In this document: positions 2,384-48,133 of the stretch, one piece after another
Layout: each line of letters starts with the position of its first letter
How positions within the stretch are numbered: position 1 is the first letter of the stretch
DNA from: Escherichia coli
GTDB taxonomy: Bacteria; Pseudomonadota; Gammaproteobacteria; Enterobacterales; Enterobacteriaceae
Length of the DNA stretch: 64,000 bases
Assembly (NCBI RefSeq): GCF_050920415.1
Contig: NZ_CP169309.1
Direction: 5' to 3' (one strand)
Notes under the pieces: model-generated
Told to the model about the DNA's origin: nothing
Databases searched by the model: none
The model's input: only the letters and a program-made list of their open reading frames with translations
Made by a program: the position numbers and the translations under genes

Positions 2384-3466
2384 TTACGATTTTCTCATTA
2401 ACAGCCACAGGCTGATTAAGAAGAAGCTGGCGCTTGGCAACAGTGCGCCGATGATCGGCGGGATGCCGTAAACCAGCGTCAGCGGGCCGAAGATCTGGTC
2501 CAGTACGTAGAAGACAAAACCGAAGCTGATACCGGTGACCACACGCACGCCCATCGGCACGCTACGCAGTGGGCCGAAGATGAACGACAGCGCCATCAGC
2601 ATCATCACCGCCACGGATAACGGCTGGAAGATTTTGCTCCACATGTTGAGCTGATAACGTCCGGCATCCTGACCGCTCGACTTCAGATACTTCACGTAGT
2701 TGTGCAAACCACTGATGGAGAGTGCATCCGGGTCCAGCGCCACCACGCCCAGTTTGTCTGGCGTGAGGTTGGTTTTCCAGGTGCCGCTCACCGTCTGCGA
2801 ACCGGTGATCTGTTTCGGATTGGTCAGATCAGATTCATCAACCTGCGACAGACGCCAGACTTTATGTTCCGGGTCAAACTTCGCGGTAGCGGCATAGCGT
2901 ACAGATTCCAGACGACGATTCTCATTAAAGGCATAGATACTGATGCCACCTAACTCTTCGTCACCTTTAACCCGCTCAATGTAGACGAAGTTGTTGCCAT
3001 CTTTTGCCCATAAACCTTGCTGGGTAGAGAGCAACGAGCCACCGTACATCGCCTGCGCACGGTAGTTACGCGCCATCTGCTCGCCCTGCGGTGCGACCCA
3101 TTCGCCAATCGCCATCGTCAACAAGACCAGCGGAATGGCGGTTTTCATCACCGACAGCGCCACCTGCATACGGGTAAAACCAGAAGCCTGCATGACCACC
3201 AGTTCGCTGCGCTGCGCCAACATCCCAAGACCAAGCAACGCCCCAAGCAGAGCCGCCATCGGGAAGAAGATTTGCACATCTTTCGGCACGCTCAGCAAGG
3301 TATACATTCCTGCGCCTAACGCGTCGTAACTCCCCTGCCCGGCTTTTTTCAGCTGATCGACAAACTTGATAATGCCCGACAGCGACACCAGCATGAACAG
3401 CGTCATCATGATGGTGGTGAAAATAGTTTTACCGATATAGCGGTCAAGTACGCCAAAAGGTTGCAT
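2384..3466 (-). CDS. lptG: LPS export ABC transporter permease LptG
   Basis: 360-aa membrane protein starting MQPFGVLDRYIGK; ATG overlaps lptF stop by 1 nt. Confidence 0.9.
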   Translation of the reverse strand: MQPFGVLDRYIGKTIFTTIMMTLFMLVSLSGIIKFVDQLKKAGQGSYDALGAGMYTLLSVPKDVQIFFPMAALLGALLGLGMLAQRSELVVMQASGFTRMQVALSVMKTAIPLVLLTMAIGEWVAPQGEQMARNYRAQAMYGGSLLSTQQGLWAKDGNNFVYIERVKGDEELGGISIYAFNENRRLESVRYAATAKFDPEHKVWRLSQVDESDLTNPKQITGSQTVSGTWKTNLTPDKLGVVALDPDALSISGLHNYVKYLKSSGQDAGRYQLNMWSKIFQPLSVAVMMLMALSFIFGPLRSVPMGVRVVTGISFGFVFYVLDQIFGPLTLVYGIPPIIGALLPSASFFLISLWLLMRKS

Positions 3467-35382: not shown

Positions 35383-36381
35383 ATGAAAACGTTAGGTGAA
35401 TTTATTGTCGAAAAGCAGCACGAGTTTTCTCATGCTACCGGTGAGCTCACTGCTTTGCTGTCGGCAATAAAACTGGGCGCCAAGATTATCCATCGCGATA
35501 TCAACAAAGCAGGACTGGTTGATATCCTGGGTGCCAGCGGTGCTGAGAACGTGCAGGGCGAGGTTCAGCAGAAACTCGACTTGTTCGCTAATGAAAAACT
35601 GAAAGCCGCACTGAAAGCACGCGATATCGTTGCGGGCATTGCCTCTGAAGAAGAAGATGAGATTGTCGTCTTTGAAGGCTGTGAACACGCAAAATACGTG
35701 GTGCTGATGGACCCACTGGATGGCTCGTCCAACATCGATGTTAACGTCTCTGTCGGTACCATTTTCTCCATTTACCGCCGCGTTACGCCTGTTGGTACGC
35801 CGGTAACGGAAGAAGACTTCCTCCAGCCTGGTAACAAACAGGTTGCGGCAGGTTACGTGGTATACGGCTCCTCTACCATGTTGGTTTACACCACCGGATG
35901 CGGTGTTCACGCCTTTACTTACGATCCTTCGCTTGGCGTTTTCTGCCTGTGCCAGGAACGGATGCGCTTCCCGGAGAAAGGCAAAACCTACTCCATCAAC
36001 GAAGGGAACTACATTAAGTTTCCAAACGGGGTGAAGAAGTACATTAAATTCTGCCAGGAAGAAGATAAGTCTACCAACCGCCCGTATACCTCACGTTATA
36101 TCGGTTCACTGGTCGCGGATTTCCACCGTAACCTGCTGAAAGGTGGGATTTATCTCTACCCAAGCACCGCCAGCCACCCGGACGGTAAACTGCGTTTACT
36201 GTATGAGTGCAACCCGATGGCGTTCCTCGCGGAACAAGCGGGCGGTAAAGCGAGCGATGGCAAAGAGCGTATTCTGGATATCATCCCGGAAACCCTGCAC
36301 CAGCGCCGTTCGTTCTTTGTCGGCAATGACCATATGGTTGAAGATGTCGAACGCTTTATCCGTGAGTTCCCGGACGCGTAA
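35383..36381 (+). CDS. fbp: Fructose-1,6-bisphosphatase class 1
   Basis: 332-aa ORF from ATG at 35383 ([15 protein letters not shown]...). Confidence 0.95.
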
Positions 36382-36413
36382 TCTCCTGCGCCTCTCCACA
36401 CGGAGAGGCGTTA

Positions 36414-37409
36414 TTATTCCTGCGCAATATTGATTCTTGTCACTGGCGAACTCTGGCGATTCTCCCACAGCACCGTTAATCCACGCTGTAAGGCAATAAA
36501 AATGAACAGCAAAATGCCGATAGCGATTTTCGTCCACCATGAGCTCAGCGTGCCATCAAAGTTTATGTAAGTCTGAATTAGCCCCTGAATCGCCACGCCA
36601 AAAAGCGTCCCTAATACCGTTCCAACGCCGCCGCTCAAAAGTGTACCGCCAATCACCACCGACGCGATAGCGTCCAGTTCCACACCTACGCCCGCCAGCG
36701 CATATCCAGCCTGGGTATAAATCGAGAAGACTATCCCCGCCAGTGTTGCCAGCCCGGTGGAGAGCATATAAATGCGTATAGTGGTGCTGCGAGTGGAAAT
36801 CCCCATCAGGTTCGCCGACGTCGCGTTGCCACCAATGGCATATACCTGATTACCAAAACGGGTACGATGCGCGAGGAATATGCCGATAACTACCACCGCC
36901 AGCATCAGTAGCCCCATCGCACTTAAGCGACCGCCGCCAGGGATTTTCCATGCAAGGCTTGAGAGCGTGTCATAAACAGGATGGTTTATCGGGATCGATT
37001 CTTCCGAAACGAGATAGCTGACGCCGCGCAAAAAGAACATTCCTGCCAGGGTAATGATAAACGCCGGGATCTTCAGGGCGTCGATCAGAAGCCCCATAAA
37101 TGCGCCGAAGGCACAGCCCATCACCAGCACCAGTGGAAACGCCAGCAGCGGCGAGAGGCCGAAATCGCCAATCACTTTTGCCAGAAACACGCCGGTAAAG
37201 GCGATCACCGAACCGACGGAGAGATCGATCCCACCGGAGAGGATCACAAAGGTCATGCCAACGGCGATGATCCCCAGAAAAGCGTTATCGGTCAGGATAT
37301 TGCAGATCACTCTTGTGGAAGCAAAACCGGGAAACTGCGTCAGACAGTAGAGATAACCCAGCACAAAGACGCCGATGGTGATCATAAGCGGCAGGTTACG
37401 TTTTATCAC
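36414..37409 (-). CDS. yjfF: Galactofuranose ABC transporter permease
   Basis: 331-aa polytopic membrane ORF; start overlaps ytfT stop. Confidence 0.85.
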   Translation of the reverse strand: MIKRNLPLMITIGVFVLGYLYCLTQFPGFASTRVICNILTDNAFLGIIAVGMTFVILSGGIDLSVGSVIAFTGVFLAKVIGDFGLSPLLAFPLVLVMGCAFGAFMGLLIDALKIPAFIITLAGMFFLRGVSYLVSEESIPINHPVYDTLSSLAWKIPGGGRLSAMGLLMLAVVVIGIFLAHRTRFGNQVYAIGGNATSANLMGISTRSTTIRIYMLSTGLATLAGIVFSIYTQAGYALAGVGVELDAIASVVIGGTLLSGGVGTVLGTLFGVAIQGLIQTYINFDGTLSSWWTKIAIGILLFIFIALQRGLTVLWENRQSSPVTRINIAQE

Positions 37410-38421
37410 GGCTACGCACTCCTTTAATCAGACTGATAAAGCGTTGCGACTGAACAATCAGCACGCAAAGCACCACCACTGCTTTCACTACCTGGTTCAT
37501 CTCTGGCGGAAAGCCAGAAAGTAAAATTCCGGTGTTCATCCCCTGAATAATCAGCGCCCCTACCACTGAGAGCAGCAGGTTAAAACGCCCGCCCATCAGC
37601 GATCCACCGCCAATCACCACCGCAAGAATGGCGTCCAGCTCCAGCCATAATCCGGCGTTGTTGGCATCGGCACCGCGAATATCCGCCGCCACGATAATGC
37701 CCGCAATCGCCGCACACAGCCCGCTCAACACATAAGTGAGCATGACGATGATTCGTGTGTTGACTCCGGCATTTTTTGCCGCCCGAATGTTGATACCAAC
37801 GGCTTCGATAAACATCCCCAGTGCCGTTTTGCGGGTCAACAGCCAGAAGAGGAGAAGCGTCAGTACCGCAATAATGACTGGTGTTGGCAGGAACACCAGC
37901 GATCCGCTGCCAAACCATGAGAGATCCGGCGAGTTAAACGTGACGATCTGTCCGGAGGTGATCAGTTGCGCCACGCCGCGCCCGGCGACCATCAGGATCA
38001 GGGTGGCGACAAACGGCTGAATTTTGAGGATCGCTACAAGTATGCCGTTCCACAACCCCGCCAGGATGCCGGTGCCCAGGGCGCTTAACAAAACAATCGG
38101 CAGGCTGAATCCCGCGACCGTCATCGCAGCCGTTGTGGCTCCGGCGATAGCCATCACCGCCCCTACGGAGAGATCGATACCACCGGTGGCGATAACCAGC
38201 GTCATACCGATAGCCAACAGCGCAACGGGTGCCGCACGGTTAAGAATGTCGATGGGGCTACCGAACAAACGCCCATCCTGAAGCACGACCTGCCAGAAAT
38301 GCGGGGCCACCAGGCTATCGACCAGCAGCACCAGCAATAGCGCCGCCAGCTGCGGCATTCCCGTTGGCCAGCGAAAGCGCCTTTTCGGCGGCGTAGTGTC
38401 CGGGAGAGATTGAGGCATCAC
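37396..38421 (-). CDS. ytfT: Galactofuranose ABC transporter permease
   Basis: Membrane ORF; GTG at 38421 gives 341 aa, ATG at 38418 is the alternative; track ORF starts at an upstream TTG. Confidence 0.8.
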   Translation of the reverse strand: MMPQSLPDTTPPKRRFRWPTGMPQLAALLLVLLVDSLVAPHFWQVVLQDGRLFGSPIDILNRAAPVALLAIGMTLVIATGGIDLSVGAVMAIAGATTAAMTVAGFSLPIVLLSALGTGILAGLWNGILVAILKIQPFVATLILMVAGRGVAQLITSGQIVTFNSPDLSWFGSGSLVFLPTPVIIAVLTLLLFWLLTRKTALGMFIEAVGINIRAAKNAGVNTRIIVMLTYVLSGLCAAIAGIIVAADIRGADANNAGLWLELDAILAVVIGGGSLMGGRFNLLLSVVGALIIQGMNTGILLSGFPPEMNQVVKAVVVLCVLIVQSQRFISLIKGVRSRDKT

Positions 38422-38431
38422 ACAGTTCTCC

Positions 38432-39934
38432 TTACGCCGCAATGGCGTTCATGATCGCCGGAACGGAAAGCTCTGCCAACGGGATCTCCGCAACCTGTTT
38501 GCGATCGCGCATGATAATCACCCGGTCGGCATAGCCCACCAGCTCTTCCAGTTCGGAGGAGATCACCAGCAGCGCCAGACCATCGGCGCATAGCGTTTCG
38601 ATCAGGCGGATGATCTCAGCGTGGGCGCCAACGTCAATGCCACGCGTTGGCTCGTCGAGGATCAGAAATTGCGGCCGGGTCAGTAGCCAGCGTGAGAGCA
38701 GCACTTTTTGCTGATTGCCACCGGAGAGAAACTCAATCGGCTGTTCGCTGGAAGGTGTGCGAATGCCAAGCTGGCGGATAAAGCGTTCGGCAATCTCTTG
38801 CTGTTCTTTGCGCGAAATTGGCCGTAACCAGCCGCGCTGGGCCTGGAGAGCGAGGATGATATTTTCCCGCACCGAGGCGGCGGCGATGATGCCATCGGTT
38901 TTCCTGTCTTCCGGGCAGAAGCCGATACCCAGTACCGAAGCCTGATGTGGCGATCGCAGGGTTTGCTGTTTGCCTTTGATCAACGCCGTGCCGCTGTCAG
39001 CAGGTTTGATCCCGAAGATCACTTCGGCGGTTTCGGTACGTCCTGATCCCAGCAAGCCTGCCAGGCCAACGATCTCGCCGGGGCGTACTTCGAGATCAAA
39101 CGGTGCGATCGTTCCTTTTTTGCCGTAATTTTTGAACGCGGCAACGGGTTTGTCGCTCAGCAATGTTCGTCCGGCACGCTGTAGCGCGTGGGTGTCCAGC
39201 TCGCGCCCCAGCATCATTTTTACCAGTTCGATCTGCGGTAGCTCGCGGGTTTCCCGACAGCCTACGAAACTGCCGTTGCGTAAGACGGTGATCCGATCGC
39301 TGACCTGATAGACCTGATCGAGAAAGTGAGTGACAAAGATCAGGCTGACGCCGCGATCGCGCAATTGACGCATCAGGCCAAACAGTAACTCTACTTCCTG
39401 AGTGTCGAGGCTGGCGGTGGGTTCATCGAGGATCAGCACTTTGGCGGAGAGATCGATGGCCCGGCAAATGGCGACGATTTGCTGCATCGCGACTGAAAAG
39501 CGGTTGAGCGGTTCCCGCACGTCGAGGGAGAAACCGTAAGATGCCATCAGTTCGGTGGCGCGCTTTTCCATCTCTTTACGGCGTAGAAGGCCGAAACGTT
39601 TGGGTTCGCGACCTATGAATAGATTATCAGCGACCGACATATTGGGTAGCAGGTTGACTTCCTGATAGACGGTGCCGATGCCGAGTTGTTGTGCGTGGGC
39701 GGTATTTTTCGGTGAGATAGTCTGGCCTTCCAGCCAGATGGTGCCACGATCGGCGTGGTAGACACCGGTTAATGCTTTGATTAGCGTTGATTTTCCCGCC
39801 CCGTTTTCACCGAGCAGCGCCATAATTTCACCACGGCGCAGGCTGAAATCAACGTTGTCTAACGCTTTGACGCCGGGGAAAAATTTACTTAATCCTTCGG
39901 TGCGGAGGATTTCCTGGTGTTGGTTAGTATTCAT
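38432..39934 (-). CDS. ytfR: Galactofuranose ABC transporter ATP-binding protein (duplicated ATPase)
   Basis: 500-aa ORF from ATG at 39934 (MNTNQHQEILRTEGLSKFF) with two Walker A motifs (GENGAGKST, GLLGSGRTE). Confidence 0.9.
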   Translation of the reverse strand: MNTNQHQEILRTEGLSKFFPGVKALDNVDFSLRRGEIMALLGENGAGKSTLIKALTGVYHADRGTIWLEGQTISPKNTAHAQQLGIGTVYQEVNLLPNMSVADNLFIGREPKRFGLLRRKEMEKRATELMASYGFSLDVREPLNRFSVAMQQIVAICRAIDLSAKVLILDEPTASLDTQEVELLFGLMRQLRDRGVSLIFVTHFLDQVYQVSDRITVLRNGSFVGCRETRELPQIELVKMMLGRELDTHALQRAGRTLLSDKPVAAFKNYGKKGTIAPFDLEVRPGEIVGLAGLLGSGRTETAEVIFGIKPADSGTALIKGKQQTLRSPHQASVLGIGFCPEDRKTDGIIAAASVRENIILALQAQRGWLRPISRKEQQEIAERFIRQLGIRTPSSEQPIEFLSGGNQQKVLLSRWLLTRPQFLILDEPTRGIDVGAHAEIIRLIETLCADGLALLVISSELEELVGYADRVIIMRDRKQVAEIPLAELSVPAIMNAIAA

Positions 39935-39954
39935 AGTTTCCCCCGTAGTAAAGC

Positions 39955-40060
39955 GTGCGCCAGATAAGACACAACAGCGTCGCATCAGGCATCTCGCACA
40001 ACCGCCGGATGCGGCGTGAATGCCTTATCCGGCGGCCCACAAGTCGGCATCAGGCATTGA
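39955..40060. repeat. REP cluster between ytfR and ytfQ
   Basis: cagataagacacaacagcgtcgcatcaggc ... gccggatgcggcgtgaatgccttatccggc. Confidence 0.85.
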
Positions 40061-40066
40061 TGCCCC

Positions 40067-41023
40067 TCAATACCCCATGTTTTTCTTCTTCTCTAACTCT
40101 TCTTTTGCAGTATCAGGCAGATAAAGGGTGGACTTGGTCAGGGTCAGCTTTTCAGGCAGGGTGCCGTCTTTTTTATATTTCTCCAGCGCATCAAAAGCGG
40201 GGCCTGCCATGTTCGGCGTCAGTTCAACGCTGGCGTTCGCTTCGCCATCAATCATCGCTTTGTAGATGTCCGGCACGCCGTCGATAGAGCCTGTCAGGAT
40301 ATCTTTGCCCGGTTTCAGGCCCGCTTCTTTAATTGCCTGAATTGCACCAATCACCATGTCATCGTTATGGGCGTAAACCATGCAGATGTTTTTGCCGTTG
40401 TTTTCCGCTTTGATAAAGCTCTCCATCACTTCTTTGCCTTTACTACGGGTAAAGTCACCTGACTGCGAGCGGATAATTTTGATATTTGGCGCATTCTTAA
40501 TGGCTTCGGCAAAGCCTTTCTTACGGTCAATGGCGACACTGGCCCCAACGGTGCCCTGCAGCTCCACCACGTTACACGGTTTGCCATTCACTTCTTTTAC
40601 CAGCCAGTCACCGATCAATTTGCCTTCGAGGATGTTGTCGGCAGTGACGGTGGTCATATAGAGAGATTTGTCTTTCACATCGATGGAACGGTCAAGCAAG
40701 AAGACCGGGATTTCGGCATCTTTCGCCTCTTTTAATACCGGCTCCCAACCGGTCGCTACCACCGGAGCGATAAAGATCGCATCCACCCCTTGCGCGACGA
40801 AGGAACGTACCGCTTTAATCTGGTTTTCCTGCTTTTGCTGACCATCGGCAATTTTCAACGTAATTCCGCGCTTTTCGGCTTCACTTTTCGCCACATTGGT
40901 TTCTGCGGCGCGCCAGCCGGATTCCGATCCGACCTGCGAAAATCCAACGGTTAATGGAGCAGCCAACGCCATAGACGACATGGCTGCCGAGACTGCAGAG
41001 ACTACAAGTAAGCGTTTCCACAT
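40067..41023 (-). CDS. ytfQ: Periplasmic galactofuranose-binding protein
   Basis: 318-aa ORF with signal peptide MWKRLLVVSAVSAAMSSMALAAP. Confidence 0.9.
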   Translation of the reverse strand: MWKRLLVVSAVSAAMSSMALAAPLTVGFSQVGSESGWRAAETNVAKSEAEKRGITLKIADGQQKQENQIKAVRSFVAQGVDAIFIAPVVATGWEPVLKEAKDAEIPVFLLDRSIDVKDKSLYMTTVTADNILEGKLIGDWLVKEVNGKPCNVVELQGTVGASVAIDRKKGFAEAIKNAPNIKIIRSQSGDFTRSKGKEVMESFIKAENNGKNICMVYAHNDDMVIGAIQAIKEAGLKPGKDILTGSIDGVPDIYKAMIDGEANASVELTPNMAGPAFDALEKYKKDGTLPEKLTLTKSTLYLPDTAKEELEKKKNMGY

Positions 41024-41332
41024 AGGGTTGTCCTCGTCGGGGTAATTATTATTGGTGAAAAGATGTTCGCGAAAAAACTATAGACAATTCGTTATGTAAC
41101 GGATTGCGTTACATCACACTTCAAAAAAGTAAATAAAACGTTAATCACAAGTTTGTAATCGCTTTCATCTCACTATGAAAAATGCGGCTACGGTTATGGA
41201 TTTTCCTGCTCTGTAAACCTTCTTAAAACTGGCGAAAAAGGAAAATGAAGACGAAAACAAGCGAAGACATTCGGCGCGAGTTGGCTATAATACTCGGCAC
41301 TTGTTTGCCACATATTTTTAAAGGAAACAGAC

Positions 41333-41863
41333 ATGAGCTTACTCAACGTCCCTGCGGGTAAAGATCTGCCGGAAGACATCTACGTTGTTATTGAGATCCC
41401 GGCTAACGCAGATCCGATCAAATACGAAATCGACAAAGAGAGCGGCGCACTGTTCGTTGACCGCTTCATGTCCACCGCGATGTTCTATCCGTGCAACTAC
41501 GGTTACATCAACCACACCCTGTCTCTGGACGGTGACCCGGTTGACGTACTGGTCCCGACTCCGTACCCGCTGCAGCCGGGTTCCGTGATTCGCTGCCGTC
41601 CGGTTGGCGTTCTGAAAATGACCGACGAAGCCGGTGAAGATGCGAAACTGATTGCTGTTCCGCACACCAAGCTGAGCAAAGAATACGATCACATCAAAGA
41701 CGTTAACGATCTGCCTGAACTGCTGAAAGCACAGATCGCTCACTTCTTCGAGCACTACAAAGACCTCGAAAAAGGCAAGTGGGTGAAAGTTGAAGGCTGG
41801 GAAAACGCAGAAGCCGCTAAAGCTGAAATCGTTGCCTCCTTCGAGCGCGCAAAGAATAAATAA
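41333..41863 (+). CDS. ppa: Inorganic pyrophosphatase
   Basis: 176-aa [41 protein letters not shown]. Confidence 0.97.
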
Positions 41864-41878
41864 GTTCTTCTAGTGCCA

Positions 41879-41917
41879 TAACCCTGAACGCCGGGCTTCG
41901 GTTAGTAAGGGTTTTTT
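41879..41917 (+). terminator. Probable ppa terminator
   Basis: aaccct ... agggtt stem followed by TTTTTT. Confidence 0.5.
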
Positions 41918-42210
41918 ATGCCCGCGATAAATAAACTGTCTATTCCCCTATCATTATTCTCAGCGCTTGCAAGGCTTGAACGGTAAGAACAAGCAAACAC
42001 GACCACCATTTTGCTGTTCATAGCCGCTTGCTGGAAATTAGCCGACCTCACTCATTCTCACCGTTCAAAGCATGCCCCCGTTTTACCCCTACGTAATTGT
42101 GAACGCCAGCAGAGTTTTTTATGCGTTTACGGATATGGAAAGCGGCTCGGAGAGAAAAGCTAAAGATAGGGAAGTTACAAAAAAAATCGCGAGATACATC
42201 GCATAAAACA

Positions 42211-42236
42211 ACGCCACCCGAAGGTGGCGTGCTTTT
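42211..42236. terminator. Hairpin terminator adjacent to ytfP 3' end
   Basis: gccacc cgaa ggtggc followed by T-rich tract. Confidence 0.6.
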
Positions 42237-42240
42237 ATTA

Positions 42241-42582
42241 TTACTTATCCCTGTCTAACCAGTCGCCGCTTTCAATTAGCTTTAATCCATCGACGGGTCG
42301 TTGATAAACGTACATCCATGCACTCCCGTACGGCGTCTGAATCAACTGGCGCGCGTATTCACCGCCCCTGGTGCGCAAGGCATCAAGTTCGGCCAGCGTG
42401 GCGTTGTCAATACGATAAACTTCACCGTGTACTGTTCCGTTCCCCGGAACTGCGCCTGGATAGTGGCCCAGGCTATACAACTGGTAGTTATCGATACTGA
42501 AATCGCCCAGTAACTGGGCATTGGTCATCCAGTGACTGTTGCCTTGTTTGTGGCGTAAACTGCCGTAGACAAATATTCGCAT
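42241..42582 (-). CDS. ytfP: Gamma-glutamylcyclotransferase-family protein
   Basis: 113-aa ORF MRIFVYGSLRHKQGNSHWM (GGCT-like YGSL motif). Confidence 0.9.
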   Translation of the reverse strand: MRIFVYGSLRHKQGNSHWMTNAQLLGDFSIDNYQLYSLGHYPGAVPGNGTVHGEVYRIDNATLAELDALRTRGGEYARQLIQTPYGSAWMYVYQRPVDGLKLIESGDWLDRDK

Positions 42583-42584
42583 TG

Positions 42585-48133
<5,549 letters not shown>

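What the first reader, a model, noticed from the sequence alone, without database searches (positions are those of the whole stretch)
41864..42240. ppa-ytfP gap lacks the chpS-chpB toxin-antitoxin genes
In K-12 as I recall it, the chpSB (MazEF-like) module lies between ytfP and ppa. Here that interval is only 377 bp, carries two terminator hairpins and has no ORF of the right size in any frame. This strain therefore appears to be chpSB-negative, and the sequence may represent the empty insertion site.
Basis: partly seen in the sequence, partly recalled or inferred. Interest (0 to 1): 0.35.

Follow-up and report, generated by a model that had tools for sequence, protein, structure and literature searches.

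The report
Decayed chpSB toxin-antitoxin remnant
This E. coli strain does lack the chpS-chpB toxin-antitoxin genes between ppa and ytfP, but the 377-bp gap is the eroded remains of that module and not an empty site, and it is a common, probably inert variant found in about 40% of E. coli.

Summary
It has a terminator hairpin at each end and no ORF longer than 50 aa. K-12 carries chpS-chpB at exactly this place in an 886-bp interval.

The "empty insertion site" reading does not hold. Window 41971-42069 (- strand) is a fragment of chpB (codons 7-40). It is 76% identical to K-12 chpB (E 7e-16, z = 24 against shuffles) and carries an in-frame stop and frameshifts. The roughly 130 nt upstream leader of chpS (86% identical to K-12) and the last bases of chpB are also retained. 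About three quarters of the interval therefore derives from the cassette.

The short allele equals the full allele minus two deletions of about 312 bp and 195 bp. Real empty sites in Citrobacter, Klebsiella, Kluyvera, Enterobacter and Salmonella are only 93-165 bp, consisting of two terminators and a short spacer.

The short allele occurs in up to 2267 of 5426 complete E. coli genomes, including BL21(DE3). chpSB occurs in 3098, and an esiB-bearing derivative in 188. The same breakpoints are found in E. albertii and in another Escherichia lineage, so the decay is old and had a single origin.

The three-state polymorphism was published in 2013. I did not find the relic described. The result is ordinary, with a small evolutionary twist.

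The parts
41333..41863 (+). ppa (inorganic pyrophosphatase), left flank of the interval
   Evidence: ORF of 176 aa. The identical record NZ_CP169399.1 annotates it as ppa.
41864..41936 (+). ppa-proximal spacer, homologous to the 79-bp chpB-ppa spacer of K-12. It contains the ppa terminator hairpin at 41880-41913 followed by a T-run.
   Evidence: 93% identity to K-12 spacer positions 1-74. Fold energy -12.4 kcal/mol. Conserved in all Escherichia alleles.
41937..41970 (-). Degenerate tail of the relic (about chpB codons 41-45) and a remnant of the last codons and stop of chpB, on either side of deletion D2 (about 195 bp, chpB nt ~146-340).
   Evidence: In NCTC86 the homology to K-12 reaches 11 nt into the chpB 3' end, and the relic reaches chpB nt 145. 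Frame view. The evidence for this segment is weaker than for the core.
41971..42069 (-). chpB relic core, corresponding to chpB nt 19-119 (codons 7-40). It has an in-frame TAA and frameshifts, so it is non-coding.
   Evidence: blastn 77/101 (76%), E 7e-16 against the gap and 1.2e-13 against the whole window. Smith-Waterman score 74 against 18.1 +/- 2.3 in 1000 dinucleotide shuffles, z = 24. tblastn gives 'VG*FPASGYEQQNGGR'. The frame-corrected peptide is 18/29 identical to ChpB 15-43, E 6e-10.
42070..42078 (-). 9-nt junction at deletion D1. D1 removed 312 bp: 49 nt upstream of chpS including its inverted repeat, all of chpS, and chpB codons 1-6.
   Evidence: Alignment breakpoints. The breakpoint after GGGGTAAAACG is identical in six short alleles, including E. 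albertii. The K-12 inverted repeat at 3403-3447 lies inside the deleted part.
42079..42210 (-). Remnant of the chpS upstream leader, which is part of the cassette. It includes a small hairpin with a T8 run at 42188-42203.
   Evidence: 86% identity to K-12 leader positions 725-876 in window orientation. This segment is absent from empty sites of other genera but present upstream of chpS in Enterobacter asburiae and Kluyvera genomosp. 1.
42211..42230 (.). ytfP terminator, a bidirectional GC hairpin (ACGCCACC-loop-GGTGGCGT) conserved across Enterobacteriaceae. It marks the native boundary of the site.
   Evidence: z = -4.9 and -6.6. The same hairpin is present in Citrobacter, Klebsiella, Kluyvera, Enterobacter and Salmonella.
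42241..42582 (-). ytfP (GGACT-family gamma-glutamylamine cyclotransferase), right flank of the interval
   Evidence: ORF of 113 aa. Pfam GGACT, E 1.2e-28. Annotated as ytfP.

Best explanation
The ppa-ytfP interval of this strain is a decayed chpS-chpB type II toxin-antitoxin cassette, not a site that was never occupied. An ancestral Escherichia chromosome carried chpSB here, between the ytfP and ppa terminators. Two deletions destroyed it. One, of about 312 bp, removed the operator-like inverted repeat, all of chpS and the first 6 codons of chpB. The other, of about 195 bp, removed chpB codons ~49-113. What remains is the upstream leader, a roughly 100-nt chpB fragment and the last bases of chpB. 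The fragment has since drifted to about 76% identity with intact chpB and acquired a stop codon and frameshifts (shown). The remnant most likely does nothing: it has no antitoxin, no toxin ORF and no recognisable promoter or RNA family, and the only working parts of the interval are the two flanking terminators (inferred). This allele coexists with the intact chpSB allele at intermediate frequency in E. coli and also occurs in other Escherichia species. The loss is therefore old and had a single origin, and it is not a feature of this strain (shown for the shared breakpoints; the age is inferred).
For: K-12 has chpSB at this site. Pairwise alignment shows the internal chpB match flanked by two large gaps. 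The match is significant at the DNA level (E 7e-16, z = 24) and at the protein level, and it lies in the same orientation and order as in K-12. The leader and the chpB-ppa spacer are also homologous to K-12. NCTC86, SF-173, the esiB-carrying strains, E. albertii NBRC 107761 and Escherichia L013 share the same structure and the identical D1 breakpoint. True empty sites are 93-165 bp and consist of terminator, spacer and terminator; chpSB cassettes in Enterobacter and Kluyvera sit exactly between those terminators. The relic is closest to Escherichia chpB and gives no hit to chpB of other genera. There is no Rfam hit, no sigma-70-like site and no conserved small ORF. PGAP annotates nothing in the gap.
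Against: The relic core is only about 100 nt, so estimates of its age are imprecise. The lack of a promoter rests on a simple consensus scan that also finds no promoter upstream of the functional chpS in K-12, so transcription of the remnant is not excluded. The leader is better conserved (86-94%) than the relic (76%), which could reflect some constraint or simply recombination between alleles. Absence of chpSB elsewhere in this strain's genome was not directly tested.
Confidence: 0.88

Rival explanations
1. One reading: the interval is a virgin empty site, representing the state of the chromosome before chpSB was inserted.
For: There are no chpS or chpB ORFs, and both flanking terminators are intact. 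Many Enterobacteriaceae do have cassette-free ytfP-ppa intervals.
Against: Those cassette-free intervals are 93-165 bp, not 377 bp. The window interval contains a significant chpB fragment, the chpS leader and the chpB 3' end in the correct order and orientation. A coding sequence with a stop and frameshifts can only have derived from a gene, not the reverse.
Confidence: 0.03
2. A recent deletion of chpSB that is private to this strain or its clone.
For: Over 12 kb the window is 100% identical to only one genome, MFDS1022581, and the next best match is 98.4%. The local haplotype is therefore unusual.
Against: The same allele with the same breakpoints is present in up to 2267 of 5426 E. coli genomes, including BL21(DE3) and NCTC86, and in E. 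albertii and another Escherichia lineage. The relic is 24% diverged from intact chpB, whereas intact chpB alleles differ by 0-5% over the same segment.
Confidence: 0.02
3. The remnant has been kept because it does something. For example, the leader plus relic might be transcribed as a non-coding RNA, or might act as a spacer or insulator between the convergent ppa and ytfP terminators.
For: The allele is at about 40% frequency and is retained across species without further erosion in length (377-379 bp in six alleles). The leader is 86-94% conserved.
Against: There is no Rfam family, no promoter-like site, and no ORF of conserved length or with conservative substitutions. Between-species divergence of the gap (87% E. 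coli to E. albertii) is greater than that of the neighbouring genes (90-95%), as expected for unconstrained DNA. Other genera manage with 93-165 bp between the same two terminators.
Confidence: 0.07

Closest known systems
chpS-chpB (chpBI-chpBK) type II toxin-antitoxin module of E. coli K-12 (MazE/MazF-PemI/PemK family)
   Same: Same chromosomal position between ytfP and ppa, and the same orientation. The window retains its upstream leader, codons 7-40 of chpB and the chpB 3' end.
   Different: There is no chpS at all. chpB is reduced to about 100 nt with a stop and frameshifts, and the inverted repeat upstream of chpS is deleted. It cannot function as a toxin-antitoxin system.
The three-state ytfP-ppa locus described by Pastorello et al. 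2013 (mBio, PMC3735183): chpBS, esiB, or neither
   Same: The window is their 'both absent' class. My counts are 57% chpSB, up to 42% short and 3.5% esiB of 5426 genomes, against their 53%, 32% and 15% of 47 genomes. The direct repeats they saw around esiB are a 26-bp duplication of the ytfP terminator.
   Different: The passages retrieved from that paper describe the third class simply as lacking both genes. They do not mention that this class and the esiB class carry a chpB relic. I did not read the whole paper or its figures.
Decay of the chromosomal ccdO157 toxin-antitoxin system in E. coli (Mine et al. 2009, Genetics 181:1557; cited from the reference list seen and from my own knowledge; the paper was not available to read)
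   Same: Both are chromosomal type II toxin-antitoxin systems at a fixed intergenic site that are polymorphic within the species and show inactivation or erosion, consistent with little or no selective value to the host.
   Different: The family (CcdAB versus MazEF-like) and the locus (folA-apaH) differ. Here the decay is by two large deletions shared across species, not by scattered inactivating mutations.

Membership tests
Functional type II TA module chpSB (MazEF/PemIK family) | Antitoxin gene encoding a MazE/AbrB-type protein (ChpS, 83 aa; Pfam MazE_antitoxin) | tested here: not met
   tblastn with ChpS against the whole window finds nothing in the gap; the best hit is a chance match inside tamB, E 0.019. 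chpS lies inside deletion D1. K-12 ChpS itself matches PF04014.
Functional type II TA module chpSB (MazEF/PemIK family) | Intact toxin ORF with a PemK/MazF fold (ChpB, 116 aa) | tested here: not met
   Only codons ~7-45 remain, with an in-frame TAA and shifts between three frames. The frame-corrected peptide gives no Pfam hit even at E <= 10. K-12 ChpB matches PF02452, E 1e-25.
Functional type II TA module chpSB (MazEF/PemIK family) | Autoregulated promoter/operator upstream of the antitoxin | tested here: not met
   The 21-nt inverted repeat directly upstream of K-12 chpS (L001 3403-3447) lies within the 49 nt removed by D1. No promoter-like site was found in the window gap. Caveat: the same scan finds none in K-12 either.
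chpB pseudogene relic (decayed TA locus) | Statistically significant nucleotide homology to chpB, at the syntenic position and in the same orientation | tested here: met
   77/101 nt, E 7e-16, z = 24. It is the only significant chpSB hit in 64 kb (E 1.2e-13; the next best is 0.031). It lies between the leader and the chpB-ppa spacer, as in K-12.
chpB pseudogene relic (decayed TA locus) | Disrupted reading frame or truncation | tested here: met
   Stop codon, frameshifts and two deletions.
Unoccupied (virgin) ytfP-ppa intergenic site | Consists only of the ytfP terminator, a short spacer and the ppa terminator, as in cassette-free relatives | tested here: not met
   Cassette-free Citrobacter, Klebsiella, Kluyvera, Enterobacter, Raoultella and S. 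diarizonae have 93-165 bp. The window has 377 bp, of which about 280 bp align to the K-12 cassette.
Rho-independent terminators flanking the interval | GC-rich hairpin followed by a U-tract, downstream of the gene on its sense strand | tested here: met
   ytfP: stem 42211-42230, -24.5 kcal/mol, z = -4.9, followed by UUGUUUU. ppa: stem 41880-41913 followed by U6; its energy is not better than shuffles (z = -0.35) but it is conserved. Termination activity itself cannot be tested with these tools.

The most novel reading that the evidence does not exclude
The intact chpSB allele and its two-deletion 'ghost' may form an ancient presence/absence polymorphism that crosses species boundaries. The ghost has identical breakpoints in E. 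coli, E. albertii and a third Escherichia lineage. It differs by about 24% from intact chpB, whereas ghosts of different species differ by 10-17% and intact alleles by 0-5% over the same segment. Intact chpSB diverges between Escherichia species roughly in step with its flanks. Both alleles sit at 40-57% in E. coli, and both occur among well-known strains of very different backgrounds (K-12 versus BL21(DE3) and NCTC86; an ST131 isolate versus Nissle 1917). This pattern would mean either long-term balancing selection on carrying or lacking a MazF-like toxin, or repeated re-invasion of the ghost site by the selfish cassette through flanking homologous recombination. Either way it would give a natural system for measuring whether a chromosomal toxin-antitoxin module has a fitness effect.
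Probability: 0.3. Interest if true: 0.45.

Novelty: new member of a known kind. Interest (0 to 1): 0.22.

Why it matters
The practical point is that "chpSB-negative" E. coli strains, including workhorses such as BL21(DE3), did not simply never receive the module. They carry a silent, unannotated scar of it. This matters for pan-genome and toxin-antitoxin surveys that score the locus as present or absent and infer gain by horizontal transfer.

In evolutionary terms the locus adds a clear example of chromosomal type II toxin-antitoxin decay, comparable to ccdO157. That supports the view that such modules are dispensable and often erode. It also marks the ytfP-ppa terminator pair as a recurrent cargo hotspot in Enterobacteriaceae. 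None of this changes current understanding of toxin-antitoxin biology.

Tried and rejected
- **Rfam.** A scan of 41000-43000 at E <= 1 gave no RNA family.
- **Promoters.** The scan found none in the gap but also none upstream of the functional K-12 chpS, so the negative result is weak.
- **Small ORFs.** ORFs of 44-50 aa in the gap do not keep their length across alleles, or they change mostly non-synonymously, so I rejected them as genes.
- **Pfam.** The frame-corrected relic peptide gave no hit because it is too short.
- **MAFFT.** The multi-allele alignment placed the relic against chpS instead of chpB. I relied on BLAST and Smith-Waterman coordinates instead.
- **Leader haplotypes.** I tested whether they separate short from full alleles, as an unrecombined ancient split would predict. 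They do not: B-766 (full) is 100% identical to NCTC86 (short), and L014 (full) is 96% identical to L013 (short). Recombination has therefore shuffled the leader, and the leader cannot date the split.
- **Source of the relic.** I tested whether it derives from a non-Escherichia chpB lineage. It does not, and it is closest to Escherichia chpB.
- **Literature.** Searches for a prior description of the relic found only the three-state locus description. Mine et al. 2009 could not be opened.
- **Whole genome.** I could not run ChpS/ChpB against the complete genome of the source strain, because the tools list at most 60 records per search and 50 kb per annotated region.

Full report
**1. Observation**

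The window is E. coli. Over 12 kb around the finding it is 100% identical to strain MFDS1022581 (NZ_CP169399.1), and no other complete genome exceeds 98.4%. ppa occupies 41333-41863 (+) and ytfP occupies 42241-42582 (-), followed by tamB. The gap 41864-42240 is therefore 377 bp, exactly as reported.

- The gap holds no ORF longer than 50 aa.
- A hairpin followed by a T-run lies behind ppa at 41880-41913. Its fold energy is -12.4 kcal/mol, which is unremarkable against shuffles, but it is conserved.
- A strong bidirectional GC hairpin lies behind ytfP at 42211-42230 (-24.5 and -22.9 kcal/mol, z = -4.9 and -6.6). A second small hairpin with a T8 run follows at 42188-42203.
MG1655 has ytfP, 211 bp, chpS, chpB, 79 bp, ppa, an 886-bp interval (also tabulated in PMC5120126).

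**2. What is really there**

A pairwise alignment of the window gap with the K-12 interval does not show one clean gap. It shows two large gaps separated by a block that aligns inside chpB.

- With sensitive blastn, window 41971-42069 (- strand) matches chpB nt 19-119 at 77/101 (76%). The E-value is 7e-16 against the gap and 1.2e-13 against the whole 64-kb window, where the next best chpSB hit has E 0.031. The Smith-Waterman score is 74, against 18.1 +/- 2.3 for 1000 dinucleotide-preserving shuffles, giving z = 24.
- At the protein level tblastn finds 'VG*FPASGYEQQNGGR' against ChpB 15-30. Reading across a 1-nt deletion gives 'LLVLTVQALQAL' against ChpB 'ALVLSVQAFNQL'. The frame-corrected peptide is 18/29 identical to ChpB 15-43 (E 6e-10). 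The segment passes through three reading frames and contains a TAA, so it is non-coding.
- No ChpS homology exists anywhere in the window.

The remainder of the gap is also homologous to the K-12 interval.

- Positions 1-73 of the gap match the chpB-ppa spacer at 93%.
- Positions 216-367 match the leader between the ytfP terminator and chpS at 86%.
- In the related allele of NCTC86 the homology reaches 11 nt into the 3' end of chpB, and the relic extends to chpB nt 145.

The short allele is thus the full allele minus two deletions.

- **D1** removed 312 bp: the 49 nt upstream of chpS, all of chpS, and chpB codons 1-6. It is replaced by 9 nt. The deleted upstream stretch includes a 21-nt inverted repeat that is a plausible operator.
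- **D2** removed about 195 bp, corresponding to chpB nt ~146-340.
- The arithmetic (886 - 312 + 9 - 195, with a few small indels) reproduces the observed 377-379 bp.

**3. What a genuinely empty site looks like**

A scan of one genome per species for YtfP relatives returned 80 loci. In cassette-free Citrobacter, Klebsiella, Raoultella, Kluyvera, Enterobacter and Salmonella diarizonae the ytfP-ppa gap is 93-165 bp. It consists of the same conserved ytfP terminator hairpin, a short variable spacer and the ppa terminator.

chpSB at 63-78% protein identity sits at the same place in Lelliottia, Enterobacter asburiae, Pseudocitrobacter, Kluyvera genomosp. 1 and an unnamed Enterobacteriaceae isolate. 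In all of them chpS starts about 211-216 nt after ytfP. Comparison with cassette-free congeners shows the cassette, leader included, begins right after the ytfP terminator T-run and ends right before the ppa terminator.

So roughly 280 of the window's 377 bp derive from the cassette, and only about 100 bp are native.

**4. Distribution and age**

| Allele at the ytfP-ppa interval | Complete E. coli genomes (of 5426) | Source |
|---|---|---|
| Full-length chpSB | 3098 | |
| At least 80% of the 377-bp short interval contiguous (includes some esiB alleles) | 2267 | |
| Short allele plus esiB inserted next to ytfP | 188 | |

- The esiB insertion is flanked by a 26-bp duplication of the terminator hairpin.
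- Carriers of the short allele include BL21(DE3), NCTC86 and SF-173.
- Carriers of chpSB include K-12, O157:H7 and an ST131 strain.
- Nissle 1917 carries the esiB allele.
- chpSB has 3101 places in 3100 genomes. The chpSB-positive genomes and the short-allele genomes together account for nearly all 5426. Second-site copies in short-allele genomes therefore look rare. This supports, but does not prove, that the source strain is chpSB-negative genome-wide.

All short alleles examined share the same architecture and the identical D1 breakpoint after GGGGTAAAACG. That includes E. albertii NBRC 107761 (L015) and a divergent Escherichia lineage (L013). The deletions therefore happened once.

The whole gap is 87% identical between the window and E. 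albertii. The corresponding values are 90% for tamB and 95% for ppa and ytfP, which is the behaviour expected of unconstrained DNA inherited alongside its flanks.

- Over the relic segment, relic copies differ by 1-17% and intact Escherichia chpB alleles by 0-5%.
- Relic versus intact differs by about 24% in the BLAST core, or about 30% when the ragged ends are included.
- Intact chpSB differs between Escherichia species by 6-9%, similar to its flanks.
- The relic is closest to Escherichia chpB, not to chpB of other genera.

Taken at face value, the decay predates the split of E. coli and E. albertii, and both alleles have persisted or been exchanged since. The estimate rests on about 100 nt. 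The leader haplotypes are shuffled between short and full alleles: B-766 (full) is 100% identical to NCTC86 (short), and L014 (full) is 96% identical to L013 (short). Recombination is therefore clearly active, and I regard the "ancient trans-species polymorphism" reading as possible but not shown.

**5. Function**

- The remnant has no antitoxin, no toxin ORF and no operator-like repeat.
- It has no sigma-70-like site and no Rfam match. The promoter scan is weak evidence, because it also misses the K-12 chpS promoter.
- It has no small ORF conserved in length or by conservative substitution.
- PGAP annotates nothing in the gap.

The most likely mechanism is none. The interval is inert DNA bounded by the two working terminators of the convergent ppa and ytfP genes. 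I give a residual 7% to some retained role, such as a transcript or a spacer.

**6. Comparison with what is known**

The three states of this locus were described by Pastorello et al. 2013, who found chpBS in 53%, esiB in 15% and neither in 32% of 47 genomes, and noted direct repeats around esiB (PMC3735183). The absence of chpSB in many E. coli is therefore already known.

The passages I retrieved from that paper, and my other literature searches, do not mention that the 'neither' and esiB classes carry a chpB relic. That detail may be new. It is one more instance of a known phenomenon, the decay of chromosomal type II toxin-antitoxin loci. The best-known example is ccdO157 (Mine et al. 2009, cited from the reference list seen and from my own knowledge; the paper itself could not be opened).

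Independent chpSB relics also exist at this site in Citrobacter sedlakii (ChpB residues 64-110) and Enterobacter cloacae DSM 26481 (ChpS residues 9-31).

**7. Verdict**

chpSB is absent from this locus, but the interval is a two-deletion ghost of the cassette and not an empty site.
- The allele is common, old and probably functionless.
- Interest is low. The main value is as a correction for presence/absence surveys and as a tidy case of toxin-antitoxin decay. There is also a modest chance (about 0.3) that the intact/ghost pair is a long-lived polymorphism worth a population-genetic look.

Noticed in passing
L006:6001-8035 and L009:1004-3038 (E. coli HM24 and GmF052; same locus as window 41864-42240): 188 of 5426 E. 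coli genomes, including Nissle 1917, carry the Sel1-repeat gene esiB (490 aa, 11 Sel1 repeats) between the chpB-relic interval and ytfP. The insertion is bounded by a 26-bp duplication of the ytfP terminator hairpin. The esiB allele is therefore a derivative of the relic allele, not of the chpSB allele. The locus states were described in PMC3735183.
   Followed up: partly
L016, L021, L022, L046, L060 (positions ~4340 to ppa in each locus): The ytfP-ppa terminator pair is a cargo hotspot in other Enterobacteriaceae. Cargo includes an Hcp-DUF6883 type VI effector (Citrobacter youngae, Salmonella arizonae), a methyl-accepting chemotaxis protein (Silvania, Pluralibacter) and a TonB-dependent receptor (Citrobacter gillenii), with gaps of 1.6-3.5 kb.
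   Followed up: partly
L032 (Citrobacter sedlakii, gap 347 bp) and L038 (Enterobacter cloacae DSM 26481, gap 1877 bp): Both carry independent chpSB relics at the same site. L032 has ChpB residues 64-110 (E 2e-6), and L038 has ChpS residues 9-31 next to ppa (E 1.5e-5). chpSB decay at this locus is therefore recurrent across genera.
   Followed up: no
L090:2198-2709 (E. coli HH45, NZ_CP116411.1): This is a short-type allele whose 101-nt relic core is 100% identical to intact K-12 chpB, while the outer breakpoints are those of the relic allele. It also has 131 nt of odd G/C-homopolymer-rich sequence at the D1 junction. PGAP calls it a partial PemK/MazF pseudogene. It is either a gene-conversion patch or an assembly or polishing artefact.
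   Followed up: partly
window 36000-48000: The local haplotype is unusual for E. coli. Only one complete genome (MFDS1022581) is at least 99% identical over 12 kb, and the tamB-ytfP stretch is only 95.3% identical to K-12. That is as far from K-12 as the separate-species representative Escherichia sp. MOD1-EC7003 (95.0%). This could be a recombinant segment or a rare lineage.
   Followed up: no
window 42072-42206 (+): A 44-aa ORF in the chpS leader, on the opposite strand to chpS, keeps its length in the window, SF-173 and E. albertii. It is 76 aa in NCTC86 and L013, and its differences are mostly non-synonymous, so it is judged not to be a gene.
   Followed up: yes
window 42211-42230 and the equivalent position in L018-L089: The ytfP terminator hairpin ACGCCACC-(TTCG-like loop)-GGTGGCGT is almost invariant from Escherichia to Klebsiella, Kluyvera and Enterobacter, although the rest of the intergenic DNA is not alignable. 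This is unusually strong conservation for a terminator, and the hairpin is also the repeat at which esiB is inserted.
   Followed up: no
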